Shown piece after piece: positions 9,614-46,807 of a DNA stretch of 64,000 bases. A program made the translations under genes and the position numbers. The stretch comes from a virus, in the IMG/VR virus record IMGVR_UViG_3300037149_000100. One strand, given 5' to 3'. Position 1 is the first letter of the stretch. Each line of letters opens with the position of its first letter. The notes beneath the pieces were generated by a model, which was not told where the DNA came from, did no database searches, and was given only the letters and a program-made list of their open reading frames with translations.

Positions 9614-10021
9614 ATGCTCACAACCGATATCATTCATAGTTTATCCGACACAAGGCTTTATTCTAAGCCGCTCCGACAGGCCTTAGAATCAAAGGTGATA
9701 ATCAATCCGGAGTGGGCCTACTGGTATGCTCGGAGTGTGATGAAACAAAGATGGCCGGAGGCGGAGCCGGTTATCGCTAAGAATCCAAAGTATGCCTACC
9801 GGTATGCTCGGGATGTGATGAAACAAAGATGGCCGGAGGCGGAGCCGACGATTCGGACTGATCCGCAGTGGGCCTACCGGTATGCTCGGGATGTGATGAA
9901 ACAAAGATGGCCGGAGGCGGAGCCGACGATTCGGACTGATCCGCAGTGGGCCTACTGGTATGCTCGGGATGTGATGAAACTAAACATGACGCAAGCGAAG
10001 AAATGGAGTAAGGGAAAATAA
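9614..10021 (+). CDS. 26-aa tandem-repeat protein, copy 1 (WAYxYARDVMKQRWPEAEP family)
   Basis: Three full 78-bp units, a partial unit and a cap; paralogues at 30787-31287 and 46469-46807. Confidence 0.8.
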   Translation: MLTTDIIHSLSDTRLYSKPLRQALESKVIINPEWAYWYARSVMKQRWPEAEPVIAKNPKYAYRYARDVMKQRWPEAEPTIRTDPQWAYRYARDVMKQRWPEAEPTIRTDPQWAYWYARDVMKLNMTQAKKWSKGK

Positions 10022-10073
10022 TCGGCACCGGCCTCAAATAATAACTTCCCATCTCCTATCATAGAGGTTACTC

Positions 10074-10457
10074 ATGGACTCAAAACATCTTGCTTCCCTA
10101 ATTGCTGATAAAGTTGAAATCTGCGAAGAAGCAGATCCTGCGATGGACGCATCCAGTCAATTTGCTCAAACTGCTCCTGGTGTTCAGGATCAGATGGCCA
10201 ACCCACTCAGCCCCATCATGCAGGATGCCGATTTCTTCACTTATCTGATGCCCGGAGCCGTTTTTGAAGCTCATGATGGCTCTCAGTGGCTCATTACTGA
10301 TTATGAGTGGGATGGCCGTATTGGAATTGAAAATCGCTGGTATCCCCGGCAGATTGCCAATGTTAACACCAACGATGTGAGGCGTTCTATATGTGCTTGG
10401 GTGGAACCGGTTAACGTCCGCGTACCCGCCCCTATCCCAGGTGTTGTATATAATTAA
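10074..10457 (+). CDS. Hypothetical protein (likely virion-associated)
   Basis: 127-aa ORF with AGAGGT SD within the structural region. Confidence 0.7.
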   Translation: MDSKHLASLIADKVEICEEADPAMDASSQFAQTAPGVQDQMANPLSPIMQDADFFTYLMPGAVFEAHDGSQWLITDYEWDGRIGIENRWYPRQIANVNTNDVRRSICAWVEPVNVRVPAPIPGVVYN

Positions 10458-10466
10458 GAGGCGTTA

Positions 10467-12059
10467 ATGCTTGATCTTACAGGTGAGAATTTAGCCACTT
10501 ATCTTCTCCGTGAATTGCGGATGGTGGTGAATCGAAATCCTCGCTTCAAGAGCTTGGGTGGCGAGACATTTGTTCAAGCATCCAACCTCATCCAGTGGGG
10601 GGATTTACAAATCCAAATTTCTAACGTATCCTCCTCAGGAAACCGCCTCAGTCCTGACTATTTCATGTGTAACCAGCATGGCCACACTGTTTTAGCCAAA
10701 TTACAAGGTCATGATGGAGTGTTTGTTGACTGGGTTCAGGAAAATCAAATCCTCACCAACAACGCTACCCCATCCAGCACCCTTGTTTGCCCGCAACCTG
10801 GAGTCTACTACTTAAATGTAGACTCAGTGGATGAGGGAACTCGTGAAGTGGGGCTAACAGTCCAGACTTACACATGGTCAACTGGAAAAACGGGGTATGG
10901 GGTTGGTTCTGGAGTTTATTTTGCCCCAGCGATTGATGCATCCACCGTGCATACCGTAGACCCTACTGTTTCTTTTATAATTCAAGGGGGTCAGCTATAC
11001 GTCACCTCCTACGCGACTCAGCAGCCCCTCCAACTCCGAACTCCTTCTCGTATACTAACCCCTAACGTGGATTTCTGGTATGTGAGGCAAGAGTCCTTTG
11101 TGATTTGTGAATCCACCTTCTCTGGCTCTCAGACTGTCACCCTTCCGGTCAGTTCCTATTCAAATCTGGTCATTACGGACCAAGATGGATACGAACTGCG
11201 AAGTGGCATTGATTACCAGTTCACTTCTTCTACCTCGATTCAACTCCAGCAATACACCCCTCCAGGGTCAACGCTTACGGGGACTTTTACCGTTAAGGCA
11301 GACCCAACGACCACTTCTGTAGTCCAGAGCGAGAATATGCTTCCCATTCCTCCCCTCTCCCCTTCCGAGCTTATGGCGGCGGGTCAGGTAGTGATTCGCT
11401 CAACTTTTGGCCCCGTTTACACCGAAACAGATTTGACGGTTGCTGGGGATGGCACCATATGGCTCAACAACCTCCTTCGTCCCGGTGAAAAAATGCTTTG
11501 GGAGATCAGGGTTAACTCTGGGCAGAACAGCATGGTGGCTAAAAAGCTGGCTGCTAACAAGAATATCATCAATGGATTGACTATTGGAATTGGAGATATG
11601 GTTACGGTTGGGGACCAATGTGTAATCATGGTTTCCCCCAATCTAACAGAGACTTATGAAGTCTATGGCTCCAAAGAGAACGTCAGCTTTGAAATTAGGG
11701 TTAAGGCGAACGATAGACTCACGGCTTCAGACATTTCCTCCATGATTCGCTCCTTTCTATTGGTTCAGGGGCGAGAGAACATGGAAGCGAACGGTTTGAC
11801 CATATTCGAAATATCCAGAGCTTCAATGACTGAACCGAAAGACATGAGTGGAGTCACCCCTTCGACCACATTTACCCTCACAGTGTCCGCTGCGGCTGAT
11901 TGGGAGTATTATCTACCTCTTATCACCCGAATCGGCTACTTTACGATTCAGATTGGTGGACCTACGGATGGTTTTATCACTGATTTTCCTGGAAAACCTG
12001 AAGTTTTACCTCGTCTTACCGCACTGGGAGCGGCTCAGTTCGTCCCATATTACGCCTAA
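10467..12059 (+). CDS. Putative tail completion/terminator-like structural protein with beta-rich insert
   Basis: Thr/Ser/Val-rich; C-terminal VSFEIRVKANDRLTASDISSMI fits a tail-terminator-like pattern; two genes before the sheath. Confidence 0.5.
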   Translation: MLDLTGENLATYLLRELRMVVNRNPRFKSLGGETFVQASNLIQWGDLQIQISNVSSSGNRLSPDYFMCNQHGHTVLAKLQGHDGVFVDWVQENQILTNNATPSSTLVCPQPGVYYLNVDSVDEGTREVGLTVQTYTWSTGKTGYGVGSGVYFAPAIDASTVHTVDPTVSFIIQGGQLYVTSYATQQPLQLRTPSRILTPNVDFWYVRQESFVICESTFSGSQTVTLPVSSYSNLVITDQDGYELRSGIDYQFTSSTSIQLQQYTPPGSTLTGTFTVKADPTTTSVVQSENMLPIPPLSPSELMAAGQVVIRSTFGPVYTETDLTVAGDGTIWLNNLLRPGEKMLWEIRVNSGQNSMVAKKLAANKNIINGLTIGIGDMVTVGDQCVIMVSPNLTETYEVYGSKENVSFEIRVKANDRLTASDISSMIRSFLLVQGRENMEANGLTIFEISRASMTEPKDMSGVTPSTTFTLTVSAAADWEYYLPLITRIGYFTIQIGGPTDGFITDFPGKPEVLPRLTALGAAQFVPYYA

Positions 12060-12069
12060 AAGGAGATTT

Positions 12070-12492
12070 ATGGCCATCAGAGAGTACAAGTGTTCATCCT
12101 GTGGGGTTATGATTGAAAAAATCATTCCCACTGCCCAGATTCCAAAAGAATCCATCCCTTGCACAAAATGTGGGGAGAGTGCAGCCTTCCAGCCCATTCC
12201 CTCCAGTGTGGGTCTTTTGACGGAGAACTTCTCCGAACAGAAGATTGACATAACTATTGGAAAGGATGCAAATCGTCGCTGGCAAGATATTTCTGATAGA
12301 AATGAGCTACGAGAAAAAGTTAGGGCACAGTCAGGAGAGGTCGGACTCTCCATGGTTGGACGGAATGAGTTCGCACCCCTTCCCGAAACCGAAAAGAAAA
12401 ATAGGACGGAAGCCCTTGCAGCCGTTACAAAAGATGGCTTCCGTCACGCTCCGGACACCAAAACTGACCGGAAGATTTTAGGCACTGATTAA
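12070..12492 (+). CDS. FmdB-type zinc-ribbon protein
   Basis: AGGAG SD then MAIREYKCSSCG...PCTKCG; true start is ATG 12070, not 11848. Confidence 0.75.
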   Translation: MAIREYKCSSCGVMIEKIIPTAQIPKESIPCTKCGESAAFQPIPSSVGLLTENFSEQKIDITIGKDANRRWQDISDRNELREKVRAQSGEVGLSMVGRNEFAPLPETEKKNRTEALAAVTKDGFRHAPDTKTDRKILGTD

Positions 12493-12507
12493 AGTGGCGA
12501 AAGAAAA

Positions 12508-12530: not shown

Positions 12531-12583
12531 CCACGATATTAAAGGGCTCTTGATCCAATTCGCAACCATAGGGAGAGATAAAC

Positions 12584-15500
12584 ATGGCTCTGTTCGCACA
12601 ATATACCGCACCGGGTGTTTACACGTTTGAAACGGTGAGCAACCCCGGAGTTATCACCTACGGGAATATTCGCCTTCCCGTGTTCATCGGTGAGGGACAG
12701 GAGACCTTCTCTGTAACCAACGTTGAGACACATCGCGGAAGTTCCGCATACGCCGATGACTTGGTAGTTAATGAGACCCTCCCAGTTCTGACGATTGGCC
12801 AGTTGAACTTCCAGTTGACTTATACCCCCATTGTTACGGGGAATGGAACCGGAACCCTCACCAACACCCCCACTGACCTCACCGTCACCCTCTCCGATGG
12901 AGTCACCCCAGTTGTGGTGACCAGCCTTAATGGAACGACTGGTGCTTTCTCCATTTTCTCTATCTACCCAGTCGGCACCGAACTGATGGTCACCTACTAC
13001 TTCAAGCGCAAGGACACTTATATTGCGAATGAAAACGATGCCCCCCAAGTTCCCACTTTTGCTACCTGGAATGCTGATTCCAACTTCCCGCTTACCCTCT
13101 CCCTTCCTGGTGAGCTTGGGAACGATGTGGACTTGGGCTTCACCTTCACCGCAGCCTCCCCAGTTTCTGACGCACAGGCAATTAGCGGCGTGGGAACCGA
13201 TGCAATCTCCATCGAATTGAACGAAGCTGCTCTTACACTCAGCACCACCGGCGACCTCACCTTTGCGACCCATACGGTTCAACGTGCTTCTGGTTCGTGG
13301 GTAACAGATGGTGTGGGCGTGGGCACTGCCGTTCGTTTTGCTGCCACGACTGCTAACAACACTGCTTCAGGAGCCTACCTGATTGTCACTGGAGTTTCTA
13401 CCACTACCACTGCAAATGACACCCTGACTTTTGCCAGCACCTTCACGGTTGAAGTGGATGCGTCTGCTACGGCAACTGCCTATATGGTCCGCACCTATGG
13501 TGATCTGGCAAATCTCCTCATCGTGGGAATTCCCACCCTGGCTGGTAACCTAGTCCTTCAGGCTCCTCTCTCCAGCGGAATCGCTGCCAAGACTGTGGCG
13601 GCTGTGGTTGCCTCTGCTCCATTCACTGGTGGTGCAGGCCCCAACTCCAACACCGTTTTCACCACCTCCTTCGTCCCTGTCGTAGATGGCACCAACGGCG
13701 GAGTCGTAACCACCAACCCAGCTTACATGAAGGCTTTGGTCAATGGTCAGCCAGCTACCGTCGCCTCCCTGAATGGTCAGACCGGAACTTTTGTCATGGC
13801 TTCCCCAGTTTTGGCCGGTCAGACCTTCACCGTCAGCTACTTCACCAACAAGTATCAGGATACTTACGACATGATTCCTGCTACTAACGTGATCAGCATT
13901 GATGCTGTGGGTTACGGCCCAAGTCGCAGCGATTTCGTCAACGGTGTGGATTATGTCCTTCAGACTCCCCCCAATGCGGATGCTCGTATTCAGTGGGGTG
14001 GCTCTGCTTCAGTCATGGCAGGAACGGCCACCGCTGGCTACACCCCATTTAGTGCTTCGGTTATCACCGATACGTTGGTGGATGAGATTATGTTCCTCCG
14101 CCCCGTTCAGGGAGCCGTCACCGGCAAGAATTACACCTTCACTCTCTCTGACACCCCAACTGATGGGTCTGGTCTGAGTGCTGTTACCAACAACCCCGCC
14201 TTGGTCCATGTTTACGTTGGCACCAGCCCAGAGGAAGCTCTTCTGGCCGGTGAGGTTCGCGTCACTCAGGTCGTTGGGGACACCGGCACGGTTGTGCTTT
14301 ACAATCCCCCCGCCACTGGCCAGAGTGTGTATGCCACCTACTACCGTAACATCCTGAATGACCACACCTTCACTCTGTCAGTGGTCAACCCAGGAATCAC
14401 CGGTCAGGGCACCTACTCAATCGCTGATGAGAAGGGGAATGTTCTCCCATCCATCACCTCCGGAGCCTCTTCGGTTACTGAAGCCGCCTTCCTAGAATAC
14501 GGTGGGGTCGTTTGGCCCAATAAGTTCTCTGATTTGAACGGTGTGGGTGGAAGTAGCCCCGATGAGACCGTTACTGTGACCTTCCAGGAAGGGGATGCTC
14601 CATTTATCATCACTCCTGGTATTCAGGCCACCCTGATCTCCGCTGTGAACGTTGGCTTGGAGTTCACCGCCACTAATTTCGGCACCGGACCCAACACTGT
14701 GGCCTCTATCATCTTTGTTGGAGCCTCTGCTAAGGCTGACTCTGCTGCTATCTCGGTAACGAGCAACGCAGTGACCGTATATATTGAGAAAGCGGACACA
14801 ACCACTCGCACCCTACAGGATATTCTCAACCTCTTCGTCACCTACCCCACTTCTACCCCAACAACCGGTGTGATTATCGCCTCCACTGTGGGTACCCCCA
14901 ACCTCACTACTTCGGCTTCGGCTGGTGCGATAGAGCACTTCACTGGCGGGGTTGCCACCGTCCAGACCCCTCGCTCCCTGCACTACTGTGTGACTTCCAG
15001 CCGTACCGCTCTCCAGGCTAGCGCTGATGGATTGGGTATCACTGGTGGGGCTACAACCCCTGTGGGTTCCAATGTTGGTTCCAACGCTGTGGGAACTACC
15101 GGTTGGCTCAACCAGACCTTCCTGGACCCCAATACGGGTGTTCAGTTCACCATCCTCAATCCGGATGATGTTCTGGCTGATCCTCTCTACGGCTTCCAGT
15201 CTCTCCCATCTCCTCGTTACCACTTTGAGCCGGGGGATACCCTCACCTTCGTCACCAGCAAAGCAACCGCTCGTACCGCCAGCGTTGTCCCAACCGTCAA
15301 CGTCTATGGCTTGAACCTGGAAGTCATCTCCACCTACGGCATGAACGCAGGGGATACGGCTCTCGTGACCACCTTCAACGCCTCCGGAAACGAGCCCTCT
15401 GTCGGAGATTACTACTACATCTCATACACGACCGAGAAGAATGCCTCCGATTTCGCCTTGAAGATATTCGATAACACGGGTGACGCTTACACTCAGTACG

Positions 15501-16456
15501 GTGTTCCCACTCCCGAAAACCGCCTCTCCATGGCAGTCAGTCTGTTCGCTCAGAATGGCGGAAACATCTTCGCCTGCCTCCAGGTTCCCAAGCAGACCGG
15601 TTTGAATACCGCAGCCGATCAGACCTACATCAACGCAATCAGCACTCTAGCTGCTCCAGTTCCTGGAAACGAGCAGAAGGCTGGTATGATTCAGGTTCTG
15701 ACCACTAGCCCAACGGTTATTCAGTACCTGAGCCGTTTCCTCCTGACCCAAGCCTCCCCACGTAACAGTGGAGAAGCGATGAGTGTTTACGGATATGGTT
15801 TCTCTGACACTCCTTCGTCCATGATCAGCCTAGCTAGTAGTCTGAAGAGTGAACGCATGATTGGAATTGGAGCCATCGGAGCAGTTCTCCAGCTTGTCAA
15901 TCCCACCACTGGCGTGGCCGTCAACTACACAGTTGATGGGTCCTTCCTCGCCGCCGCAATGGCGGGTATGATGGTCGATCCAGCCATCGACGTTGCCACC
16001 ACCCTGACTCGTCAGAGCATGGTTGGATTCCAGGGTCTCATCACTCGTTACGATGACCCCACCATGGATTCGATGACCGCTAGCGGCCTAACTTGCCTTG
16101 TGGAAAACCCCGGAGCCTTCATTGTCCGTCACTGGGTCACCACCGACAACTCCAGCCCCCTGAAGCGCGAACCTACTTCTCGCTTGGTGGTCGATTATGT
16201 TCGCCAGACGATGCGTGGTAGCTTGAACCAGTTTATCGGTCGCAAGCTCATCCTCAGCACCCTCAACACCGTTACTTCAGTGGTTAGTTCCACTCTAGTC
16301 AGCTTGGTCGCTGAGGAGGTTATCGAGGGTTACAGCACCATCGTAGTCGCCGCTGACCCCTCTGATCCAACTACCCTGAATGTTAGCTTTACAATTAAGC
16401 CGATTTTCAGCTTGCTCTGGATCTCTGTACAGCTCACCGTAACCACCCAGCTTTAA
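12584..16456 (+). CDS. Contractile tail sheath protein (1290 aa, with inserted beta domains)
   Basis: N-terminal YTAPGVYT..RLPVFIG; C-terminal sheath core (VDGSFLAAAMAG, RHWVTT, DYVRQ..FIGRK, NVSFTIKPIFSLLWISV). Confidence 0.92.
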   Translation: MALFAQYTAPGVYTFETVSNPGVITYGNIRLPVFIGEGQETFSVTNVETHRGSSAYADDLVVNETLPVLTIGQLNFQLTYTPIVTGNGTGTLTNTPTDLTVTLSDGVTPVVVTSLNGTTGAFSIFSIYPVGTELMVTYYFKRKDTYIANENDAPQVPTFATWNADSNFPLTLSLPGELGNDVDLGFTFTAASPVSDAQAISGVGTDAISIELNEAALTLSTTGDLTFATHTVQRASGSWVTDGVGVGTAVRFAATTANNTASGAYLIVTGVSTTTTANDTLTFASTFTVEVDASATATAYMVRTYGDLANLLIVGIPTLAGNLVLQAPLSSGIAAKTVAAVVASAPFTGGAGPNSNTVFTTSFVPVVDGTNGGVVTTNPAYMKALVNGQPATVASLNGQTGTFVMASPVLAGQTFTVSYFTNKYQDTYDMIPATNVISIDAVGYGPSRSDFVNGVDYVLQTPPNADARIQWGGSASVMAGTATAGYTPFSASVITDTLVDEIMFLRPVQGAVTGKNYTFTLSDTPTDGSGLSAVTNNPALVHVYVGTSPEEALLAGEVRVTQVVGDTGTVVLYNPPATGQSVYATYYRNILNDHTFTLSVVNPGITGQGTYSIADEKGNVLPSITSGASSVTEAAFLEYGGVVWPNKFSDLNGVGGSSPDETVTVTFQEGDAPFIITPGIQATLISAVNVGLEFTATNFGTGPNTVASIIFVGASAKADSAAISVTSNAVTVYIEKADTTTRTLQDILNLFVTYPTSTPTTGVIIASTVGTPNLTTSASAGAIEHFTGGVATVQTPRSLHYCVTSSRTALQASADGLGITGGATTPVGSNVGSNAVGTTGWLNQTFLDPNTGVQFTILNPDDVLADPLYGFQSLPSPRYHFEPGDTLTFVTSKATARTASVVPTVNVYGLNLEVISTYGMNAGDTALVTTFNASGNEPSVGDYYYISYTTEKNASDFALKIFDNTGDAYTQYGVPTPENRLSMAVSLFAQNGGNIFACLQVPKQTGLNTAADQTYINAISTLAAPVPGNEQKAGMIQVLTTSPTVIQYLSRFLLTQASPRNSGEAMSVYGYGFSDTPSSMISLASSLKSERMIGIGAIGAVLQLVNPTTGVAVNYTVDGSFLAAAMAGMMVDPAIDVATTLTRQSMVGFQGLITRYDDPTMDSMTASGLTCLVENPGAFIVRHWVTTDNSSPLKREPTSRLVVDYVRQTMRGSLNQFIGRKLILSTLNTVTSVVSSTLVSLVAEEVIEGYSTIVVAADPSDPTTLNVSFTIKPIFSLLWISVQLTVTTQL

Positions 16457-23762: not shown

Positions 23763-24317
23763 CTATCTAGTTAATGACCAGCCCTCGTTCAAATAGTAAT
23801 CAATCTGCTGATTTCTCACTCGCTTATACTTCTGTCCCTTATACATTTTTATTGTATTAGCAAACATTTCTTTCATTGATTGTCTCCACTCCTCATTGTT
23901 GGCCACATTATTATTCCCGCGCTTCTTTGCAATGGCTGACATTTTTTGTTTAGTTTCTTTCGAGCGTTTCACTCCAAGCTGAGACCCAGCGGTTACACAG
24001 GTATTATATAGTTCCACTCCATCAGATTTCAGTTTTTCCAACCAATACTGCTCTCTAAGCAGGAGAGCTTCTCGGGTGGGCTCAGTAACCTCTATAACTG
24101 ACCATTGGAATGCGTTGACTCCATATCTTTCCCACGCCCGACTTAAATGCTCATTACTGTGGATTTTTTTGTTAAGCTCATTATGGTGCCGCCGCCATCT
24201 TCGGTAGAAGTTCAGGGCTGAACCTATATAGCAGACTCCGCTCTCCTTATTATCTATGCGATACACCCCCGCCCTCATGTCGTACGGAAAGGGGTAGGTT
24301 CCCAATGGTCTCGCCAT
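23763..24317 (-). CDS. Free-standing GIY-YIG homing endonuclease with NUMOD3-like motif
   Basis: GVYRI...CYIGS..RW.RH...REQYW...YN, then GVKRSKETKQKMS; GAGGAG SD. Confidence 0.9.
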   Translation of the reverse strand: MARPLGTYPFPYDMRAGVYRIDNKESGVCYIGSALNFYRRWRRHHNELNKKIHSNEHLSRAWERYGVNAFQWSVIEVTEPTREALLLREQYWLEKLKSDGVELYNTCVTAGSQLGVKRSKETKQKMSAIAKKRGNNNVANNEEWRQSMKEMFANTIKMYKGQKYKRVRNQQIDYYLNEGWSLTR

Positions 24318-26445: not shown

Positions 26446-27696
26446 ATGGACCAGACAATCAAAGATGCTTTTGCGGAAATACCCCATGATCCAGATTGGT
26501 TGGATCGCTACTTGAATTTTCTTGAGGAATCCACTATTCCGACTGAGGATGACTACTCCGAGTCTCATCATATTCTTCCCAGGAGTCTGTTTCCTGACTT
26601 TCAGTTGTTTACTCAGAACCCTTGGAATCGCATTGACTTGAAGGGGACGGACCATCTGATCGCTCACTACTTCCTACTGAAAGCTTTACCAGAGGTTCAT
26701 GCACTCAGACATGCGTTCTGCTTCATGGTGGGCATTAGGCAGGATCAGCCGGTTCCTGATATCTCTCCCATCCTTCTTCAAGAGATGGCTGAAGAGTATG
26801 TGTTTCAGAAAACTGGGCTCAGATGGGTAACTAAAGATGGTCAGGAGCTGAAGATTTTGCCTCATGAACACACGAAGTATTTAATGGACGGGTGGGCTCT
26901 GGGTAGGGCTTATACCCATTCTAATGAAACTCGGCTAAAAATTATTGATGGAAATAGGGAGTGGCACCGACTTGAATCTCTCAAGTCTGACGCTTATGTA
27001 TATCTGCCCCACGGTGATCAACATCATCGTCGTATATTTGGCTGCCCCCCAGAAGTTAGGGCAAAAATTTCTGCTGGGCTGACCGGATTGGTTCAGTCTG
27101 CTGAAACGATTGAAAAGCGGCGGCTGAAAATAGTTGGGACACATTGGGTCTGGAACCCAGACTCCAAGAAACAGTTATCCGTTTCTCGCCAGGGTGAGGG
27201 CAACAACCGCTTTGGCCAAGTTGGTTATTGGCGAGACAAACATCATTCTGAAGAGGAAAAGCAAAAAACCTCTGAGTCTCTCAAGCAGTTCAACAGGGAA
27301 CACCCTGATGTGAATCGGGATAACAAGCCCAGAGGGGAGGATCATTGGACGTTCGGCAGGGAGCGACCAGAGGAGACGAGACAGAAGATATCTGCCTCGC
27401 TGACGGGCAAGAAACAGTCCACAGCGACCAAACAGAAACGTGCGGAGTCCCTAGCGATGACTAAACTTCCCTCTTTTACTCCAGAAGAGGAAAGTATTTT
27501 TCATCGCATCCTCTCTGCCCCGACTGACAGAGAGCGAGAGTGTCTGGCTAGGTTGATTAGTTCCACCAAGCAAGCACCGGCCAAATCCTTAGCTCTGGGT
27601 CTCTGCTTCCTTCTCAACGGAGAGTGGCAGACTCGTGACCGCCGCTACTGGAGGACGGCTGAAACTTGGCTGAAGAAAAATAACATCGTTATTTGA
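26446..27696 (+). CDS. HNH homing endonuclease with multiple NUMOD3-like repeats
   Basis: ESHHILPRS...NRIDL...HLIAH, then repeated HSNETRLKI / PEVRAKIS / HSEEEKQK / RPEETRQKIS; AGGAGG SD. Confidence 0.88.
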   Translation: MDQTIKDAFAEIPHDPDWLDRYLNFLEESTIPTEDDYSESHHILPRSLFPDFQLFTQNPWNRIDLKGTDHLIAHYFLLKALPEVHALRHAFCFMVGIRQDQPVPDISPILLQEMAEEYVFQKTGLRWVTKDGQELKILPHEHTKYLMDGWALGRAYTHSNETRLKIIDGNREWHRLESLKSDAYVYLPHGDQHHRRIFGCPPEVRAKISAGLTGLVQSAETIEKRRLKIVGTHWVWNPDSKKQLSVSRQGEGNNRFGQVGYWRDKHHSEEEKQKTSESLKQFNREHPDVNRDNKPRGEDHWTFGRERPEETRQKISASLTGKKQSTATKQKRAESLAMTKLPSFTPEEESIFHRILSAPTDRERECLARLISSTKQAPAKSLALGLCFLLNGEWQTRDRRYWRTAETWLKKNNIVI

Positions 27697-28919: not shown

Positions 28920-29828
28920 ATGTCGAATAATCCAAAGCAGCCAGATGAGGTGTGGGTTAGTATCCCGCTCTCCTATCTGGCTGTTTCTCGTTATAAAGTT
29001 GCTTTGAATATTAGGGAACTCACTACCCTGACGAACCAGTTCAGTCTGAAATATGTGAAGGGCTGTGTCCCAACCCTGATTCGTTCTCTCCCCAAAGAGC
29101 TTTCAATGCAGTATCGGGTGAAGTGTCAGAAAGAAGACTCAGACCCGGCTGGGCATGAAGTTCGAGTGAAGTTTGACATCTCCCAGGTAACCAAAGATAC
29201 CACCCTGAATGACCTTCAGGTTCGCTGTAGCTGCACGTGTCCCGCCTTTTTGTATTGGGGGGCTCAGTGGCACCTTCATGAACAGGACAGCTTAGAGGGG
29301 CAGCCACGGCCCCTCCTACAGGCTCCCCAGGAACGGCTTGACCTACGGAATGGTTACATGATCTGCAAGCATGTTAAAGTCGTATCTGATCGGATCATCC
29401 CTTCGATTAGTAAGGTCATTAAAAATATCTCCCGAGATCTTTTGGTCAAAGAGAACAAGACTCGTGAAGAGCAGGAGCTTCAGAGTCAGGAAGCTGATGA
29501 GAAGTTACAGCAGGCTCTACCACACGAAAAAGGTGAACCGCAGGCCCCCGCCCGACCCCCTAAGTCACCCCCTAAGCAGACTCCTCCGCAGAAGGCCCTC
29601 ACTCAAATGCAAGGGCCAAGCCCCCAAGAGGTTCAACGCAGACAGGATATGCTTCAGAAAGAGGAGGATCGCCTCATGGACCTCGTTATGAAGCCTATCG
29701 AACAAACCGAATCCGTAGAGGACATGCAGGAAGGCAAGCCTGCAAAACCCAAGAAACCAGAGCGAAGTGGTTTGGATATGGGGTTAAAACCCGGTCAAAA
29801 AGTTCGCTCACGCCCAGGAGTAATTTGA
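28920..29828 (+). CDS. SWIM-type zinc-finger protein
   Basis: VRCSCTCPAF...ICKH (CxC...CxH). Confidence 0.7.
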   Translation: MSNNPKQPDEVWVSIPLSYLAVSRYKVALNIRELTTLTNQFSLKYVKGCVPTLIRSLPKELSMQYRVKCQKEDSDPAGHEVRVKFDISQVTKDTTLNDLQVRCSCTCPAFLYWGAQWHLHEQDSLEGQPRPLLQAPQERLDLRNGYMICKHVKVVSDRIIPSISKVIKNISRDLLVKENKTREEQELQSQEADEKLQQALPHEKGEPQAPARPPKSPPKQTPPQKALTQMQGPSPQEVQRRQDMLQKEEDRLMDLVMKPIEQTESVEDMQEGKPAKPKKPERSGLDMGLKPGQKVRSRPGVI

Positions 29829-30805
29829 TGAAACATGCGGCCCTTCCAGATACCAGTAAACTCCCCAAACAACCAATGTCTAAGGAGTTCGATGCGGTTC
29901 GCCGCACCTACCAGACTATGGTGGATGAAAATATTCAAGCGATGAGTTGGAAAGAGTTCCAGCAGAAGTTCCAGCAGGCTGTGAAACAGTTTCCCCAGTT
30001 GTTCACAGAGATTCGCCATAACAGGCCAGCCATTCAACAATCTGATTTAAAGAGTTGGATTGATAAACAGGAAAGTAGGGAAAACTACAATATCACATAT
30101 GATAAGTATCATAGCCCTGAGCACTCCTATCGAGATGTAGAGCAGTTGGTCGTGCAGTTGAATCGGGGCGCGGAGGCTAGCAAAATTCTTGAAGAAGACT
30201 CACCATTGGGTCAGTTTGTAGATATGGTTGGGTCTGCCTCCTCCCCATCTGGGCACCCTGCCCGAAGAGATACGGTGGGTTGGCTCCGAGTTGATTTTGT
30301 GGATGAGGATTATCTGTTTGTTGACGAGATTCAGTCCGATTTGGTCAATGGAGTATCTCAGGCTCAGGCATTCCTTAAGCACCCCAACTACCAATCCTGG
30401 TACAACGCTCAGAACGAGGGAGTCAGGGTCCAAATTGATGCTATTCCGGATGCGAAACAGCGTTTCAGAGGGGCGAAGGGCCAGTTTGAGATGATGGGGT
30501 ATACGGTGGAAACCTTAGAGGAAATCAAGGGCAAACTGATCAAATTGTTCGAGGATTGGAGTGAGTACGCCCTCGCCACCATCCTGGAAATCGCACGATC
30601 TCATGAGATTAAATATGTGGCGATTAATAGCTCAGATAGTATTGCTACTAGAGACCCATCAGTTGACCCGCAAAAAGTCAAGATGTATTATGACAATTTG
30701 GCCAAGTCGTTTGGATTCAAAAAGCAACAGATTGACCTACCTCAGATATCAGGGGCTTTTTGGGTCCGGAAGGCATCGATTCGCTCTTATTTGACAGCGC
30801 GATAG
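29825..30805 (+). CDS. Hypothetical protein with possible GNAT-like domain
   Basis: GWLRVD...LFVDEIQSD and C-terminal IARSHEIKYVAI...YYDNLAKSFGF resemble GNAT-like modules of phage polyvalent proteins. Confidence 0.5.
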   Translation: MMKHAALPDTSKLPKQPMSKEFDAVRRTYQTMVDENIQAMSWKEFQQKFQQAVKQFPQLFTEIRHNRPAIQQSDLKSWIDKQESRENYNITYDKYHSPEHSYRDVEQLVVQLNRGAEASKILEEDSPLGQFVDMVGSASSPSGHPARRDTVGWLRVDFVDEDYLFVDEIQSDLVNGVSQAQAFLKHPNYQSWYNAQNEGVRVQIDAIPDAKQRFRGAKGQFEMMGYTVETLEEIKGKLIKLFEDWSEYALATILEIARSHEIKYVAINSSDSIATRDPSVDPQKVKMYYDNLAKSFGFKKQQIDLPQISGAFWVRKASIRSYLTAR

Positions 30806-31287
30806 GTTCCCTTACTCCATTTCTCCGCCTCCGGCCATCTTTGTTTCAGCACATCCATAGCATACCGGTAGGCCCACTCCGGATCAGTCCGAATCATCGG
30901 CTCCGCCTCCGGCCATCTTTGTTTCATCACATCCCGAGCATACCGGTAGGCATACTTTGGATTCTTAGCGATAACCGGCTCCGCCTCCGGCCATCTTTGT
31001 TTCAGCACATCCATAGCATACCGGTAGGCCCACTCCGGATCAGTCCGAATCATCGGCTCCGCCTCCGGCCATCTTTGTTTCATCACATCCCGAGCATACC
31101 GGTAGGCCCGCTCCGGATCAGTCCGAATCGTTGGCTCCGCCTCTGGCCATCTTTGTTTCAGCACATCCATAGCATACCAGTAGGCCCACTCCGGATTGAT
31201 TATCGCCTTTGGTTCTAAAGCCTGCCGGAGCGGCTTAGAATAAAGTTTTGTGCTGGATAAACTTTTAATGATATTGTATGCTAACAC
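30787..31287 (-). CDS. 26-aa tandem-repeat protein, copy 2
   Basis: About five 78-bp units, near-identical in DNA to copy 1; opposite strand. Confidence 0.8.
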   Translation of the reverse strand: MLAYNIIKSLSSTKLYSKPLRQALEPKAIINPEWAYWYAMDVLKQRWPEAEPTIRTDPERAYRYARDVMKQRWPEAEPMIRTDPEWAYRYAMDVLKQRWPEAEPVIAKNPKYAYRYARDVMKQRWPEAEPMIRTDPEWAYRYAMDVLKQRWPEAEKWSKGTYRAVK

Positions 31288-31303
31288 TGGATGCCCTTAG
31301 CGA

Positions 31304-31364
31304 CCTCTACTAGTGAATCGAGAAGTCCACAGCACAAATGGACTTCCTACTTCTTAGGATGTAG
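31304..31364. promoter_or_regulatory. Back-to-back pair of class-B motifs (candidate divergent promoters)
   Basis: Minus strand GACTTC-N11-GTAGAGG (31327-31304) and plus strand GACTTC-N12-ATGTAG (31341-64). Confidence 0.5.
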
Positions 31365-31384: not shown

Positions 31385-31588
31385 ATGACTACAAAAATTG
31401 CTGCCGTTGACGCTGAGGCGATGAACAACCTTTTCGCTGAGGAACTCACCAAGACAGGTTCTAAGGTCGCTGCCGGAGAGAAGCTCCAGTGCTTTGATGA
31501 CCATAAGGATTATGTGTCTACCCTCGAATCCGTCTTGAGTGACGACAAGAACGATGCGTGGGAACCTAACGACATGATTCTCGACTAA
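31385..31588 (+). CDS. Small acidic hypothetical protein
   Basis: AGGAG SD; 67 aa with KIAA and KVAA. Confidence 0.7.
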   Translation: MTTKIAAVDAEAMNNLFAEELTKTGSKVAAGEKLQCFDDHKDYVSTLESVLSDDKNDAWEPNDMILD

Positions 31589-31601
31589 TCGGGATAGAAT
31601 A

Positions 31602-32507
31602 ATGAAGCTCTCGGCCAGCCTAGTTCTCTTAGGTTTGAGAACACAAGAACAAGGACGGATAAAAACATCCGCCCTTGACCGTTCTGTGTTTTCGAGTTTG
31701 GTGAGAATTATGAGTTTCAACGAGGATTTCAACATTTACATTCATGAGGCCCTCAAGGCCCATAACCTTCCTGTCGATCCAAAAATGAATTGGGCCAAAT
31801 GGCTCAATGCGGTGTATCGGACCCGAGTCGCCCCCAATAACGAGGAAATGCGTGACGAGGCTATTCATGAAGTTCTGGTCCACCATCTGTTTGAAGAGAA
31901 GTCAGATGTGCTGAATCGGTTTGACCCCGCTCGACTCCCTGAGAAAATTCAGCAGCGGCCCCTAGAAGAGCAGGTCAGTTCTTATCTGAAAACCTGCTTT
32001 ATTTACATGATGGGGGATGCGATTAAATATCTTCGAAAGATGTATCCGGAGCAGGAGACTGCCATGGGGCTCACAACCGAAGACCCAGACGCTCCGAGTA
32101 TTCTCAATAAAATCCAGCATGGAGTAGTTGACCAGGAAGAGGAAGAACTCGTTCAGAATGTTGAAATGCGTAAACTCCGTCATGCCTTTGACGAATGGTG
32201 TACGCGAAAGCTTCGTCCCGCCACGGCAAAACAAATAGTTCAGTTTTTTGACTTGATTATCATCTTTGATGGTGGCCAGGGAGAAATGCTGGATGAGTTT
32301 GCCTCTCGTTCTGGGGTAAGTCGTGCGAGAGCCAATCAACTTCTTTACCACGAACTACCCCGATACCTACGTCAATTTTCTAGTTCTCCGGAAGGGAAAG
32401 GTTTCAGTCTTGCCAAGCGTATCCGCACCAAGATTGAGAATGAAAGGCATGAAGCCGAACTACCTGCGAGAGAGCCAGAACCAGAGCTTGCCCAATCAAC
32501 CCCTTAA
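31602..32507 (+). CDS. Sigma70/ECF-like protein with N-terminal leader
   Basis: Region-2-like RDEAIHEV..NRFDP..SSYLK..AIKYLRK and region-4-like HTH EFASRSGVSRARANQLL. Confidence 0.55.
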   Translation: MKLSASLVLLGLRTQEQGRIKTSALDRSVFSSLVRIMSFNEDFNIYIHEALKAHNLPVDPKMNWAKWLNAVYRTRVAPNNEEMRDEAIHEVLVHHLFEEKSDVLNRFDPARLPEKIQQRPLEEQVSSYLKTCFIYMMGDAIKYLRKMYPEQETAMGLTTEDPDAPSILNKIQHGVVDQEEEELVQNVEMRKLRHAFDEWCTRKLRPATAKQIVQFFDLIIIFDGGQGEMLDEFASRSGVSRARANQLLYHELPRYLRQFSSSPEGKGFSLAKRIRTKIENERHEAELPAREPEPELAQSTP

Positions 32508-33094: not shown

Positions 33095-33784
33095 TTGGCA
33101 CCGAAGAGAAAGTATGAAAAGCAACCCTACGAGGTCGGAGTTTACGGGATACTAAATACCATTACAAACAAGTGGTACATTGGGTCTTCTATTGAGTTGT
33201 CAAGGAGATTCGGGCATCACCTGAGAGAACTGAGGAATGGGAAGCACCATTCTCTTAAGCTTCAACGTTCATTTGACAAATATGGCGAAGGGGCGTTTCA
33301 GTTCAAGATACTCTTGGTATGTGAAGCCAAAGATGTGGAAATGTTCGAAAACAGAGCCATCATAGCTTATGATTCTTACAAGAATGGGTATAATGTGGCT
33401 GCGGAAGCTAAGGGTGGGTTTATGCGCGGAAGAAAATGGCCAGAGGCTACGAAAGCCGCAAGGGTTGTTAGCATGTGTGGGCGACCCATGTCAGATAGTA
33501 ATAAAGCAAGTCAATCCGTGAGAAAGCTGGCAGAGTGGGCAGATCCTGCTACACATGAGGCCAGATCAATTAGTATGCGAAAGCCCAAGAGTCCGGAGGG
33601 TCGTGAAGCCATAATTCAGGGTTTAAAGAAACGTTATGAGTCTCCGGAAGCTCACAAAGCAACAGCCGAGGCGACAAGAAAAACGTGGGCTGAAAGACGC
33701 GAAAAATACGGTTCAACTGGTAGAAAACCAAAAAATAAAAACAGTCTAACTACTTCTGAGGAGGTGACTTACGGCGGAAAATAG
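33095..33784 (+). CDS. GIY-YIG homing endonuclease
   Basis: GVYGI...WYIGS..RRF.HH...EN..I...GYN with a basic helical tail; TTG start. Confidence 0.88.
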   Translation: MAPKRKYEKQPYEVGVYGILNTITNKWYIGSSIELSRRFGHHLRELRNGKHHSLKLQRSFDKYGEGAFQFKILLVCEAKDVEMFENRAIIAYDSYKNGYNVAAEAKGGFMRGRKWPEATKAARVVSMCGRPMSDSNKASQSVRKLAEWADPATHEARSISMRKPKSPEGREAIIQGLKKRYESPEAHKATAEATRKTWAERREKYGSTGRKPKNKNSLTTSEEVTYGGK

Positions 33785-44469: not shown

Positions 44470-44538
44470 GCAAAAATTTCCGTATACGGTTTCACTGGGT
44501 TGTGGGTATAATAGGTTGCAGGTTCACAGGAGGTTTTC

Positions 44539-45351: not shown

Positions 45352-45386
45352 AGCCGTTCGCATCGCAACAAACCCGGAGGAGTTAA

Positions 45387-45719
45387 ATGAGCAAAACCGA
45401 CAAAATCATGGAAGTCCCCAAATCAGCCGATGAGAAGCGGACGGACCCCCCAGAGCCGCATCAACTCAAGGCTCGTGTGCGGAAAGTTTATCCTCCGCAC
45501 ATGCAAGTGCGGAGGTATGGTGAGGGTGGATTCTATGTCAAGCCCCACGGTCTCCCCCACCTCAACCATTGGATCTACTACGATCATTGGGTTGACCGAA
45601 CTGACTTGCCCGGTATTCTGAGATGGTTTGAGGGGCGCTACCCTGAAACGTGTGGGTTACCGGTGCGGTTTATTAACTGCGCTCCTATTGAGTGTGGCAG
45701 AGAAGTGATCCCAAACTAA
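45387..45719 (+). CDS. Hypothetical protein
   Basis: GGAGGAG SD; 110 aa. Confidence 0.65.
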   Translation: MSKTDKIMEVPKSADEKRTDPPEPHQLKARVRKVYPPHMQVRRYGEGGFYVKPHGLPHLNHWIYYDHWVDRTDLPGILRWFEGRYPETCGLPVRFINCAPIECGREVIPN

Positions 45720-45734
45720 GTAGAGGAGAACGGC

Positions 45735-46157
45735 GTGGGCCATGGAGTTGAAGAGGGGGACGTTTGCGGTCGCAATGGATGCGAGGGGGTAATAGAAGTG
45801 CATCCCGTGGAGGGGTGTAGTTGTCATATTAGCCCACCATGCTCGGCGTGTACAAAGCCACGAAACTTCTGTCCTGAGTGCGGATGGGAACTTGCCGATG
45901 ATGAGGTTTTCAATGACTACCTAGTCAATGTGGATCATGAGACTGGCTCATTTAGATTCTGGGAACCCAGGCCGCTCGACCCCACTAAAATTGATTGGAG
46001 ATCCAGCTCTCATACCAATTCATCTATGATTAAGGAGGGTGTCTACCCTCCAGGAACCACTTCTGGGGAGGTTCGAAAACTGGTGGATGGGACGTTTGGT
46101 GGTCGTTTTGAATATTTCAAGGACGGTAAGTTCAAGTTCATCGCCTACACGGATTAA
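45735..46157 (+). CDS. Cys-rich hypothetical protein
   Basis: GAGGAG SD, GTG start; C..C, CSCHISPPCSAC, CPECG. Confidence 0.7.
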   Translation: MGHGVEEGDVCGRNGCEGVIEVHPVEGCSCHISPPCSACTKPRNFCPECGWELADDEVFNDYLVNVDHETGSFRFWEPRPLDPTKIDWRSSSHTNSSMIKEGVYPPGTTSGEVRKLVDGTFGGRFEYFKDGKFKFIAYTD

Positions 46158-46169
46158 AGGAGCTAGATT

Positions 46170-46307
46170 ATGAACGGATACTATGATGAGGGCTGGAATG
46201 CCAGAGTCCAGGGGGAGGCATACGACTTCACCAAATCCCAGGACTGGCGGGATGGGTGGAAAGATTGCGATGAGGCTCCAGAGAAGGATCACATCTTGAT
46301 GGATTGA
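46170..46307 (+). CDS. 45-aa Rmf/CrpP-fold-like protein (not in ORF track)
   Basis: AGGAG SD; MNGYYDEGWNARVQGEAYDFTKSQDWRDGWKDCDEAPEKDHILMD shows the Y.EG..A...G...W..GW pattern. Confidence 0.6.
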   Translation: MNGYYDEGWNARVQGEAYDFTKSQDWRDGWKDCDEAPEKDHILMD

Positions 46308-46313
46308 AACAAC

Positions 46314-46423
46314 GGTGTCGATGACCTGGGACCACGGCTCCCATGCCTCACGGCGGGTTATCCCATGGGTAGTAGGTTGGGCTAACCTCCCAATTTGCGG
46401 AGCGGTTCGAATCCGTTGGCACC
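46314..46423 (+). ncRNA. tRNA-like element (T-arm plus acceptor-like stem; non-canonical)
   Basis: AGCGG-TTCGAAT-CCGTT T-arm at 46401-17; GGTGTC pairs with GGCACC; no recognisable D or anticodon arm. Confidence 0.35.
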
Positions 46424-46468
46424 CTCAGAGTAATATGGTGTAACTAGTGGCCATTAAGGATCATTCAA

Positions 46469-46807
46469 GTGTTCACAACCGAAATTATTTTAAGTTTATC
46501 CAACAAAAAGCTTTACTCCAAGCCGCTCCGGCAAGCTGTAGAACCAAGGGCGGTGACGGACCCACGGTTGGCCTACACGTATGCTTTGGCGATACTAAAA
46601 CAAAGATGGCCAGAGGCGGAGCCGATTATCACTAAATATCCTATGTGGGCCTACTGTTATGCTTTGTATGTGATGAAACAGAGATGGTCGGAGGCAGAGC
46701 CGGTTATCGCTAAGGATCCTGAGTGGTCCTATTTGTATGCTCGGAATGTGATGAAACTAAACGAAACGCAAGCGAAGGAATGGAATGGAATGGAGTCTGA
46801 GCGATGA
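46469..46807 (+). CDS. 26-aa tandem-repeat protein, copy 3 (diverged)
   Basis: Same N-cap (LYSKPLRQA) and C-cap (KLN.TQAK.W); two full units plus a partial unit. Confidence 0.8.
   Translation: MFTTEIILSLSNKKLYSKPLRQAVEPRAVTDPRLAYTYALAILKQRWPEAEPIITKYPMWAYCYALYVMKQRWSEAEPVIAKDPEWSYLYARNVMKLNETQAKEWNGMESER

What the first reader, a model, noticed from the sequence alone, without database searches (positions are those of the whole stretch)
9614..46807. Dispersed family of 26-aa repeat genes with shuffled units and variable residues
Seen: three copies (9614+, 30787-, 46469+) share an N-cap (LYSKPLRQA), a similar upstream sequence (AAGGATCATTC / AAGGGCATCC) and a C-terminal (K/E)W end, but differ in unit number (about 4, 5 and 3) and order. 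The scaffold P-x-x-AY-x-YA-x-x-V-x-KQRWPEAEP-x-I-x-x-x is nearly constant. Positions 2, 3, 6, 9 and 10 vary (EW-W-RS, KY-R-RD, QW-R-RD, EW-R-MD, RL-T-LA, MW-C-LY). The VIAKNPKY block occurs with the same DNA in copies 1 and 2 at different array positions. Copy 2 follows a class-B motif and copy 3 a class-A motif. Inference: a modular solenoid binder diversified by unit exchange, conceptually like TALE/PPR or ankyrin arrays; target unknown.
Basis: partly seen in the sequence, partly recalled or inferred. Interest (0 to 1): 0.7.

Follow-up and report, generated by a model that had tools for sequence, protein, structure and literature searches.

The report
Phage family of variable 26-residue repeat proteins
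Three small genes scattered through a roughly 300-kb peat-soil phage encode stacks of a 26-residue two-helix repeat with a fixed core and one fast-changing surface, and they belong to a very large, unnamed, almost purely viral protein family that probably works as a swappable binding module.

Summary
Three paralogous genes (9614-10021 +, 30787-31287 -, 46469-46807 +) share a 31-aa N-cap, an SD sequence, 78-nt tandem units (3+cap, 5, 2+cap) and a degenerate C-cap. AlphaFold2 gives a helix-turn-helix solenoid (pLDDT 86.8) with no specific PDB relative. Positions 2, 3, 6, 9 and 10 form one stripe of helix A. They are also the most variable positions across 1,483 units of 325 homologues. Copies 1 and 2 share a 108-nt exact tract at different array positions, although their N-caps are only 82% identical. 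A strain 98% identical in the flanks has 4 different units in place of the 5 of copy 2. A 75%-identical relative lacks copy 2 altogether, so copy 2 is a 527-nt insertion. The family holds about 5,000-6,900 clusters at 50% identity, has no Pfam, NCBIfam or PHROG model of its own and was not found in the literature searched. Elsewhere the array is fused to other domains, including a GNAT-fold domain homologous to copy 2's neighbour. The best reading is a diversifying binding or targeting module. The target is unknown, no binding was tested, and a TALE/PPR-like code is not supported. Unit order could not be confirmed from reads.

The parts
9614..10021 (+). Copy 1 gene (135 aa): N-cap aa 1-31. Units at 9707-9784, 9785-9862 and 9863-9940; degenerate C-cap unit at 9941-10018.
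   Evidence: A syntenic orthologue lies in a 75%-identical relative (L001/G001, 71% aa identity).
9601..9605 (+). Shine-Dalgarno AAGGA, 8 nt before the ATG of copy 1. The gap to the upstream gene is only 27 nt, so copy 1 is probably co-transcribed with it.
30787..31287 (-). Copy 2 gene (166 aa, GTG start): five units from 31194 down to 30805. The tail YRAVK plus stop (30804-30787) is read from the antisense of the neighbour gene's 3' end.
31294..31298 (-). Shine-Dalgarno AAGGG of copy 2
30806..31332 (.). 527-nt segment (copy 2 without its last 19 nt, plus 45 nt upstream). Here a 75%-identical relative (G001) has only 13 nt between the same two flanking genes, so this is a cassette-like insertion or deletion.
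46469..46807 (+). Copy 3 gene (112 aa, GTG start): units at 46562-46639 and 46640-46717, C-cap unit at 46718-46795. Its stop overlaps the start of the primase-like gene (ATGA).
46456..46460 (+). Shine-Dalgarno AAGGA of copy 3
9741..9848 (+). 108-nt tract identical to 30897-31004 (-). It spans units 1-2 of copy 1 and units 3-4 of copy 2, and marks exchange between the dispersed copies.
29825..30805 (+). Convergent neighbour of copy 2 (326 aa), overlapping it by 19 nt. It has a GNAT-like predicted fold and is homologous to the C-terminal domain fused to arrays of this repeat in other proteins.

Best explanation
Shown: the three genes are paralogues. Each encodes a small basic alpha-alpha solenoid made of a 31-aa N-cap, 2-5 units of 26 residues and a degenerate C-cap. 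One unit is a 12-residue helix A (P-x-x-A-Y-x-Y-A-x-x-V-M/L), a K-Q-R-W turn, a 7-residue helix B (P-E-A-E-P-x-I) and a 3-residue linker.

Shown: the arrays change quickly, by gain and loss of units and by exchange of tracts between copies 21 kb apart. A whole gene with its ribosome-binding site can appear in or vanish from an intergenic spot like a moron cassette.

Inferred from helix periodicity: A4, Y5, Y7, A8, V11, M/L12, W16 and I23 build the core, and positions 2, 3, 6, 9 and 10 form one outward stripe on helix A.

Inferred: the stripe is a binding surface. The proteins act as adaptors or inhibitors that recognise host or competitor macromolecules, most likely proteins. The array is a portable targeting module, because other phages fuse it to unrelated domains: a GNAT-fold domain, an AAA+ ATPase and a 240-aa domain of unknown function.

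Speculative: copy 2 works together with its GNAT-like neighbour.
For: Fold: AF2 of copy 2 gives pLDDT 86.8 and pTM 0.79, with alternating 12- and 7-residue helices. Only generic helical-repeat matches appear, best Z 6.4 to a designed repeat and 5.5 to a HEAT domain.

Variable face: helix-A positions 2, 3, 6, 9 and 10 fall in an 80-200 degree arc and scaffold positions in the opposite arc. Across 1,483 units from 325 homologues these five positions have the highest entropy (3.3-4.1 bits), together with position 22 (3.3 bits). Among the 7 full units of copies 1 and 2, pN/pS is 1.47 at variable codons and 0.08 at scaffold codons.

Turnover: there is a 108-nt exact tract between copies whose N-caps are 76/93 identical. 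In a strain with 98.3% DNA identity over 5.3 kb, six neighbouring proteins are 95.6-100% identical, but the copy-2 orthologue is 74% identical with 4 units instead of 5. Close relatives with the same N-cap carry 2, 3, 4, 5 or at least 7 units. A flank contig in run X4 reaches the copy-2 locus and continues into a different C-cap (LNEMQ type). Copy 2 is absent from the same site in G001.

Module use: 58 of 240 homologues carry an N-terminal 'GTxWCT' domain before the array. Five paralogues on one 29-kb contig have a constant N-terminus, 9-14 variable units and a constant C-domain. That C-domain is homologous to copy 2's neighbour (hhalign probability 91.4%, E 9e-7, 211 columns). The neighbour's model (pLDDT 88.3) hits almost only GNAT acetyltransferases, with Z up to 9.9 and 34 chains at Z>=8. 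One array is fused to an AAA+ ATPase.

Family: 6,883 / 5,007 / 1,581 representative clusters at E<=1e-3 / 1e-10 / 1e-30. The nearest Atlas clusters are 95-100% viral.
Against: No binding was tested and no target is known.

Exposed positions vary more than buried ones in any protein. A pN/pS of 1.47 comes from non-independent unit pairs and is not a significance test.

The AF2 model is less confident over units 3-4 (pLDDT 63-77), and its coordinates could not be inspected. The 'one face' claim therefore rests on helix periodicity.

The adjacency of copy 2 and the GNAT-like gene is not conserved, because G001 has the GNAT-like gene without copy 2. A functional pairing is therefore weakly based.

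The GNAT assignment is by fold only, with Foldseek E no better than 0.026. No Pfam match was found and the cofactor motif was not checked.

The window, L004 and the other contigs are metagenome assemblies. Copy 2 holds a 129-nt exact internal repeat. Public contigs break at the array, so unit number and order are not independently confirmed.

Copy 1's orthologue (71% aa) is not clearly faster than its neighbours (68-91%).
Confidence: 0.5

Rival explanations
1. The arrays are sequence-specific nucleic-acid binders with one unit per base, as in PUF, PPR or TALE. Positions 2, 3 and 6 would play the part of the PUF tripartite motif: edge contact, stacking residue, edge contact.
For: The three window proteins are basic (pI 9.83, 9.52, 8.97). 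Their variable stripe is rich in R and W/Y, for example EW-W-RS, KY-R-RD and QW-R-RD. Position 3 is often aromatic family-wide (Y 15%, W 13%). Copy 3 is translationally coupled to a primase-like gene, which lies next to the DNA polymerase gene. The resemblance to the PUF motif is recalled from memory, not tested.
Against: The median pI of 120 near-length homologues is 6.0, and only 28% are above 8. Each unit carries conserved acidic residues: E18 and E20 (fixed by the extraction anchor), D26 at 47% and D10 at 32%. No profile or fold match to PUF, PPR or TALE was found. Unit counts of 2-5 would specify very short sites. The matches to the HTH_35 'DNA-binding' Pfam family are summed sub-threshold repeat hits with no significant stretch.
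Confidence: 0.12
2. The proteins are plain structural or scaffolding helical repeats with no specific ligand, for example spacers or assembly helpers. Variation at exposed positions would be neutral, and unit number would drift by replication slippage.
For: Copy 1 lies inside a virion-gene block, with a tail-sheath domain protein at 12584-16456, and is syntenic in G001. Its divergence lies within the range of its neighbours. Tandem 78-nt repeats are prone to slippage.
Against: The same five positions are the most variable across thousands of distant units, while equally exposed helix-B residues stay conserved. The copy-2 orthologue changes far faster than genes around it that are 95.6-100% identical. 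The array is fused to many unrelated domains, which fits a recognition module better than a fixed scaffold.
Confidence: 0.2
3. The mosaic pattern (shared 108-nt tract, different unit orders, 4 versus 5 units) is produced by short-read metagenome assembly across near-identical repeats, not by biology.
For: In two DNA runs no Logan contig spans the array. Flank contigs stop at 30852 or 30828 and resume at 31257, with only 69-110-nt pieces at 48-151x against about 30x for the flanks. Copy 2 has a 129-nt exact internal repeat. L004 and L002 begin or end inside the array.
Against: L004 carries units absent from the window's three genes, such as PEWAYGYAMDVIKQRWPEAEPIIAKD, so they cannot arise by reshuffling the window's units. 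Complete genes with 2, 3, 4 and 5 units are found in independent assemblies. The gene family itself does not depend on assembly.
Confidence: 0.12

Closest known systems
HEAT/ARM/TPR-type alpha-alpha solenoids and de novo designed helical repeat proteins (DHR)
   Same: Stacked helix-turn-helix units with capping units, a hydrophobic core and a variable surface. These are the best structural matches: 9k7u_A Z 6.4, 6e9t_B Z 6.3, symplekin HEAT 3gs3_A Z 5.5.
   Different: The unit is 26 residues, against about 34 for TPR and about 37-47 for HEAT (recalled). No Pfam HEAT, TPR or Sel1 profile matches. The consensus AYxYAxxVIKGRWPEAEPxIxxDP is unlike any of them. Z values of 5-6 are in the range the tool calls non-specific for helical repeats.
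PUF / PPR / TALE modular nucleic-acid readers
   Same: Tandem units with a constant scaffold and a few variable positions at fixed sites. Array length and unit order vary between paralogues.
   Different: No sequence or fold relation was found. The arrays are much shorter (2-5 units here). The family is mostly acidic to neutral. No evidence of nucleic-acid binding exists.
Ankyrin-repeat host-range and effector families of poxviruses and giant viruses (recalled from general knowledge)
   Same: Virus-encoded, multi-copy, fast-evolving repeat arrays, often fused to a constant effector or adaptor domain. They are taken to be binders of host proteins.
   Different: A different repeat (33-aa ANK with a beta-hairpin). 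Those hosts are eukaryotic, while this family is in tailed phages.
Pfam HTH_35 (PF13693), Phage_FRD3 (PF05798), DUF982 (PF06169), FF (PF01846), Phage_YunG-like (PF24591)
   Same: Short parts of these profiles (about 20-40 positions) resemble one unit. Summed over repeats the scores sometimes pass the cut-off: DUF982 scores 31.3 bits on copy 2, and HTH_35 scores 38.7 bits on P0007. Automatic names such as 'winged helix-turn-helix DNA-binding' on homologue clusters come from this.
   Different: Nearly all such hits have zero individually significant stretches and cover only part of the profile. The three window proteins do not meet HTH_35 or FRD3 at all. HTH_35 is a Ner-like 90-aa DNA-binding domain (passages read in PMC4542580 and PMC9023278), not a repeat.

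Membership tests
TPR / HEAT / Sel1 / ARM repeat families | Match to the family's sequence profile | tested here: not met
   Pfam scan of copies 1-3 at E<=1 lists none of these families.
TPR / HEAT / Sel1 / ARM repeat families | Alpha-alpha solenoid fold | tested here: met
   AF2 gives alternating helices of 12 and 7 residues, pLDDT 86.8. Generic helical-repeat matches reach Z 5-6.4.
TPR / HEAT / Sel1 / ARM repeat families | Unit length (TPR 34, HEAT about 37-47, ARM about 42; recalled) | tested here: not met
   The period is 78 nt, or 26 aa, in all three arrays.
PUF / PPR / TALE | Profile or fold match to the family | tested here: inconclusive
   No Pfam hit. No such chain appears among the rows shown by Foldseek or VIA. 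Absence from a fold list does not exclude the family.
PUF / PPR / TALE | Sequence-specific nucleic-acid binding | not testable with these tools
   Needs EMSA, SELEX or a structure. The only indirect data are the window copies at pI 9.0-9.8 and the family median of 6.0.
Pfam HTH_35 (PF13693, Ner-like HTH) | Score above the gathering cut-off with a significant domain over most of the 75-position profile | tested here: not met
   No hit on copies 1-3. In homologues the hits have 0 significant stretches and cover about positions 19-62.
Pfam DUF982 (PF06169) | Score above the cut-off over the 73-position profile | tested here: inconclusive
   Copy 2 scores 31.3 bits (cut-off 22.2), but the match covers only profile positions 17-35. 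Copy 1 scores 14.2 bits and copy 3 has no hit.
Diversity-generating retroelement (DGR) targets | A reverse transcriptase with template repeat nearby, and adenine-specific variation | tested here: not met
   No reverse-transcriptase family among the 53 window ORFs scanned. The variable codons differ at all four bases, for example GAG/AAG/CAG and TGG/CGG/TAT. The rest of the roughly 300-kb genome was not available.
GNAT acyltransferases (for the neighbour ORF 29825-30805) | GNAT fold | tested here: met
   Model pLDDT is 88.3. In VIA nearly all of the 50 rows shown are GNAT-type entries, best NatD at Z 9.9, rmsd 3.4, 140 aligned. The Foldseek top rows are GNAT but weak, with E>=0.026.
GNAT acyltransferases (for the neighbour ORF 29825-30805) | Profile match and acyl-CoA binding motif | tested here: not met
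   No Pfam family at E<=1e-3 and no PHROG. A motif-B-like YYDNLAKSFGFKK is seen by eye only, and the cofactor loop was not verified.

The most novel reading that the evidence does not exclude
The 26-residue unit is a natural, very compact, programmable recognition module. Each unit would read one element of a linear target (a base of RNA or ssDNA, or a residue of an extended peptide) through positions 2, 3 and 6. Phages would re-target it by shuffling units between paralogues, and by fusing arrays to enzymes such as the GNAT-like domain they would aim those enzymes at chosen host molecules.
Probability: 0.1. Interest if true: 0.9.

Novelty: new variant of a known kind. Interest (0 to 1): 0.55.

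Why it matters
The family is large: about 5,000 clusters at E<=1e-10 in 1.84 billion representatives. It is almost exclusively viral and has no model in Pfam, NCBIfam or PHROGs. It turned up no relevant paper in full-text searches for its motif, and it is sometimes mislabelled automatically as a 'winged helix DNA-binding' protein. A dedicated profile would annotate thousands of phage genes.

The pattern resembles viral host-interaction gene families. It combines a fixed scaffold, one hypervariable stripe, unit shuffling between dispersed copies, cassette-like gain and loss, tandem expansions to more than ten paralogues, and fusion to enzyme-like domains. These genes are therefore candidates for host-takeover or anti-defence functions in soil jumbo phages.

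At 26 residues per unit it would also be an unusually short natural scaffold for engineered binders.

Tried and rejected
Whole-genome copy count: no genome is held for this window.

Complex prediction of copy 2 with its GNAT-like neighbour: the queue was full twice, then the tool was declared unavailable. Nothing was folded.

GenBank phage collection: tblastn with copy 2, copy 3 and homologue P0031 gave no match. The cultured relative Tunturiibacter phage Tunturi_5 (DNA polymerase 42.6% identical) gave no match to the family profile. The low-complexity filter and short units limit these searches.

A single protein found 1 locus, in an Acidobacteriota MAG. The scan uses exact peptide patterns, so it says little about absence.

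PDB by sequence: nothing for copy 2, for the GTxWCT domain or for P0138. My guess that the P0138 N-terminus is PARP-like got no support and is dropped.

Foldseek against PDB and BFVD for copy 2: no match at E<=1e-3.

The Atlas gave only a weak PcfJ lead (0.89) for the GTxWCT domain.

tRNA or Rfam element upstream of copy 3: none.

Promoter and terminator consensus scans around copies 1 and 2: no more sites than in shuffles.

A shared upstream word, AMCTAGTRG: 2 matches against 1.26 expected.

Read laying: contigs break at the array, so unit order, strand and expression level could not be read. RNA-library contigs touch only 30519-30939, 30692-30828 and 30999-31077, which does not show transcription.

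Synteny of copy 3: the primase-like neighbour was not found in 4 related contigs.

First profile search of the fused C-domain against window ORFs with default filters: no hit. With filters off the neighbour was top at E 0.0018 among 199 ORFs, next best 0.26.

Full report
**1. What is in the sequence**

The window is part of a tailed phage.
- It encodes a family-A DNA polymerase with exonuclease domain, a primase-like zinc-ribbon protein, a UvrD-type helicase and a protein with a tail-sheath domain.
- It also encodes GIY-YIG and NUMOD3 homing-endonuclease-like genes and a collagen-repeat protein.
- The polymerase is 42.6% identical to that of Tunturiibacter phage Tunturi_5, which is 308,711 bp.
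- Related metagenomic contigs of 147 kb are rated 51% complete. Homologues of a window gene sit on contigs of 305 and 314 kb. The genome is therefore probably about 300 kb, and the window is about a fifth of it.
- The sequence is found in peat, permafrost and freshwater metagenomes. Of the 24 runs listed, 20 hold at least part of it, from 18 studies.

Three ORFs carry the repeat: 9614-10021 (+), 30787-31287 (-) and 46469-46807 (+).
- Tandem Repeats Finder reports 78-nt arrays at exactly these places and nowhere else. A six-frame motif scan finds no fourth copy.
- Each protein has a 31-aa N-cap containing LYSKPLRQA. It is followed by 26-aa units (3 + cap, 5, 2 + cap) and then a degenerate last unit, in which KQRWPEAE is replaced by KLN(M/E)TQAK, followed by (K/E)W.
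- In copy 2 the last unit has the canonical KQRWPEAE instead.
- Similarity upstream of the start codons is limited to a Shine-Dalgarno AAGGA or AAGGG and its spacer.
- The sense frame is the coding one. All homologues match it, and scaffold codons show pN/pS of 0.08. The long antisense ORFs inside the arrays, such as 30760-31218 (+), are by-products of the repeat.

**2. Structure**

AlphaFold2 was run on copy 2 with a 50-sequence alignment. It gives mean pLDDT 86.8 and pTM 0.79.
- Units 1-2 are modelled at pLDDT 94-98. The middle of the array is less certain (63-77).
- The pattern is helix A of 12 residues, a short turn, then helix B of 7 residues.
- Foldseek finds nothing at E<=1e-3 in the PDB or in BFVD.
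- The exhaustive VIA search gives only generic helical-repeat matches, such as designed repeats at Z 6.4 and 6.3 and a HEAT domain at Z 5.5. The tool itself rates this range as non-specific for helical repeats.
- The fold is therefore an alpha-alpha solenoid with no specific solved relative.

On a helical wheel, positions 2, 3, 6, 9 and 10 of helix A occupy an 80-200 degree arc. A4, Y5, Y7, A8, V11 and M/L12 occupy the opposite arc. This is inferred from periodicity, because I could not inspect the coordinates.

**3. Which positions vary**

I extracted 1,483 units from 325 homologous proteins, anchored on W16, E18 and E20.
- The highest entropies are at positions 6 (4.08 bits), 2 (3.96), 3 (3.84), 9 (3.52), 22 (3.32) and 10 (3.31).
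- A4, V11, I12, R15, P17, A19 and I23 are strongly conserved. Y7 and A8 are also near-invariant, but the extraction filter constrained them.

Among the 7 full units of copies 1 and 2 there are 13 extra amino-acid states against 4 extra synonymous codons. pN/pS is 1.47 at the variable codons and 0.08 at the scaffold. The pairs are not independent, so this describes the pattern and is not a test.

**4. How the arrays change**

- *Exchange between copies.* Copies 1 and 2 share a 108-nt exact tract (9741-9848 = 30897-31004 on the other strand). It sits at units 1-2 of copy 1 and at units 3-4 of copy 2. Their N-caps are only 76/93 identical.
- *A near-identical strain.* Contig L004 is 98.3% identical over 5,304 nt. 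Six neighbouring proteins are 95.6-100% identical, and the immediate neighbour is 100% identical. The copy-2 orthologue is only 74% identical. It has 4 units instead of 5, including units not present anywhere in the window.
- *Unit numbers.* Close relatives with the same N-cap carry 2 (L007), 3 (P0004, P0023), 4 (L001, L004) and at least 7 (L002, truncated) units.
- *C-cap variant.* In DNA run X4, the contig that matches the flank of copy 2 (29800-30828) continues into a C-cap of the LNEMQ type instead of the window's sequence. A short contig in RNA-library run X15 does the same.
- *Gain or loss of the whole gene.* In G001, which is 75% identical over 10 kb, copy 1 has a syntenic orthologue. 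Copy 2 is absent there. The GNAT-like gene and the 67-aa gene are separated by 64 nt, where the window has a 527-nt segment (30806-31332). The YRAVK tail of copy 2 is read from the antisense of the neighbour's 3' end, and that sequence exists in G001 without copy 2. This is what one expects if a cassette was inserted and its frame ran on into the flank.

The caveat is that all of these are short-read metagenome assemblies.
- Copy 2 contains a 129-nt exact internal repeat.
- In the two DNA runs laid, contigs stop at the borders of the array. The interior is covered only by 69-110-nt pieces at raised depth.
- Unit number and order in the window are therefore not independently confirmed.

**5. 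The family**

- The near-length search found 1,444 proteins at E<=1e-3 among 4,950 candidates.
- The search among longer proteins found 871 at E<=1e-5 among 7,018 candidates.
- A profile search of 1.84 billion representatives found 6,883, 5,007 and 1,581 clusters at E<=1e-3, 1e-10 and 1e-30.
- Nearly all are unnamed. The nearest ESM-Atlas clusters are 95-100% viral.
- No Pfam, NCBIfam or PHROG family describes the repeat. The hits to HTH_35, Phage_FRD3, DUF982, FF, YunG-like, IBN_N and others cover a fraction of each profile and almost all have no individually significant stretch. They are sums of weak matches over many units.
- HTH_35 is a Ner-like DNA-binding domain (passages read in PMC4542580 and PMC9023278). 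The automatic 'winged helix' names on some clusters are most likely artefacts.
- Full-text searches found nothing relevant. I searched for RWPEAE, WPEAE, GRWPE, RWPEGE, KGRWP and WPEAEPYI, and for a word combination on phage helical repeats.
- No match was found in 50,697 GenBank phage records with three queries, nor in Tunturi_5.

**6. Clues to function from architecture**

- Arrays range from 1 to 34 units in the 240 homologues examined.
- One viral contig carries more than ten tandem paralogues (L003/L006).
- 58 of 240 homologues have an N-terminal domain of about 240 aa with a GTxWCT motif in front of the array. That domain has no Pfam, PDB or named Atlas relative.
- One bacterial protein joins the array to an AAA+ ATPase.
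- Five paralogues on one 29-kb contig have a constant N-terminus, 9-14 variable units and a nearly constant 272-aa C-terminal domain.

That C-terminal domain is homologous to ORF 29825-30805, the convergent and overlapping neighbour of copy 2.
- BLASTP gives two collinear segments, E 0.002 and 0.038.
- The ORF is the top hit among 199 window ORFs, E 0.0018.
- Profile-profile comparison gives probability 91.4%, E 9e-7, over 211 columns.
- Its AF2 model (pLDDT 88.3) matches almost exclusively GNAT acetyltransferases. The best is NatD at Z 9.9, and 34 chains reach Z>=8. The list includes a phage anti-CRISPR acetyltransferase and acetyltransferase toxins. Foldseek agrees in kind but only weakly.

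These fusions show that the array is a portable module attached to different 'business ends'. That is the usual signature of a recognition or adaptor domain. Whether copy 2 and its neighbour act together is open. The adjacency is not conserved in G001, and the complex prediction could not be run.

**7. Reading**

- *Most likely (about 0.5):* these are small solenoid binding proteins. Their helix-A stripe recognises host or competitor macromolecules. They are diversified by unit gain, loss and exchange and are spread as cassettes.
- *Less likely:* a PUF/PPR-like nucleic-acid reader (about 0.12). This phage's copies are basic and R/W-rich, but the family is not.
- *Also possible:* a non-specific scaffold with neutral surface drift (about 0.2).
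- *Caveat on turnover:* part of the mosaic evidence may be an assembly artefact (about 0.12).

The repeat is a new class within the known kind 'alpha-solenoid repeat proteins'. It is abundant, viral and unannotated.

Noticed in passing
window 29825-30805 (+): A 326-aa protein with no Pfam or PHROG match. Its confident AF2 model has a GNAT acetyltransferase-like fold with a long helical insertion. It has 31 homologues, all in related large phage contigs, and a distant homologue is fused to arrays of the 26-aa repeat.
   Followed up: yes
window 31385-31997 (+): RNA-library contigs from two different studies (X15, X16) both begin exactly at 31385, the ATG of a conserved 67-aa ORF (31385-31588). 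Their depth is higher than elsewhere in the stretch, while DNA contigs run on. This is a weak hint of a transcript end or a leaderless start.
   Followed up: no
window 46380-46430 (+), upstream of copy 3: A stretch that looks by eye like the 3' half of a tRNA (GGTTCGAATCC T-loop-like word, then an acceptor-like end). ARAGORN and Rfam call nothing there.
   Followed up: partly
window 23763-24317 (-), 33095-33784 (+), 26446-27696 (+): Two GIY-YIG domain genes and one NUMOD3-motif gene, which are homing-endonuclease-like. This phage genome carries other mobile genes besides the repeat cassettes.
   Followed up: no
window 57440-59155 (+); tandem repeats 58242-58399: A collagen triple-helix repeat protein (Pfam Collagen, 58 bits), with 9/18/27/36-nt DNA repeats. 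It is probably a fibre protein.
   Followed up: no
L003 and L006 (one 84,887-bp viral contig): More than ten tandem paralogues of the same repeat family in about 15 kb. Each has a conserved N-terminus (MKLRDLFEAMDLYKYHSNPEKL...), 5-11 units and a conserved tail (...KYNEFIKGLSK).
   Followed up: partly
window 30760-31218 (+) and 9689-10052 (-): Long open frames antisense to the arrays (152, 71 and 91 aa). They are repeat-generated artefacts, not genes.
   Followed up: yes
window 83-2881 (-): A 932-aa protein with a class-I methyltransferase domain (Methyltransf_23). The rest of the protein is unassigned.
   Followed up: no
P0121 (1,760 aa, metagenomic): A giant member of the family with about 30 units. 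Its N-terminus looks by eye like a signal peptide, so some members may be secreted bacterial proteins and not phage proteins.
   Followed up: no
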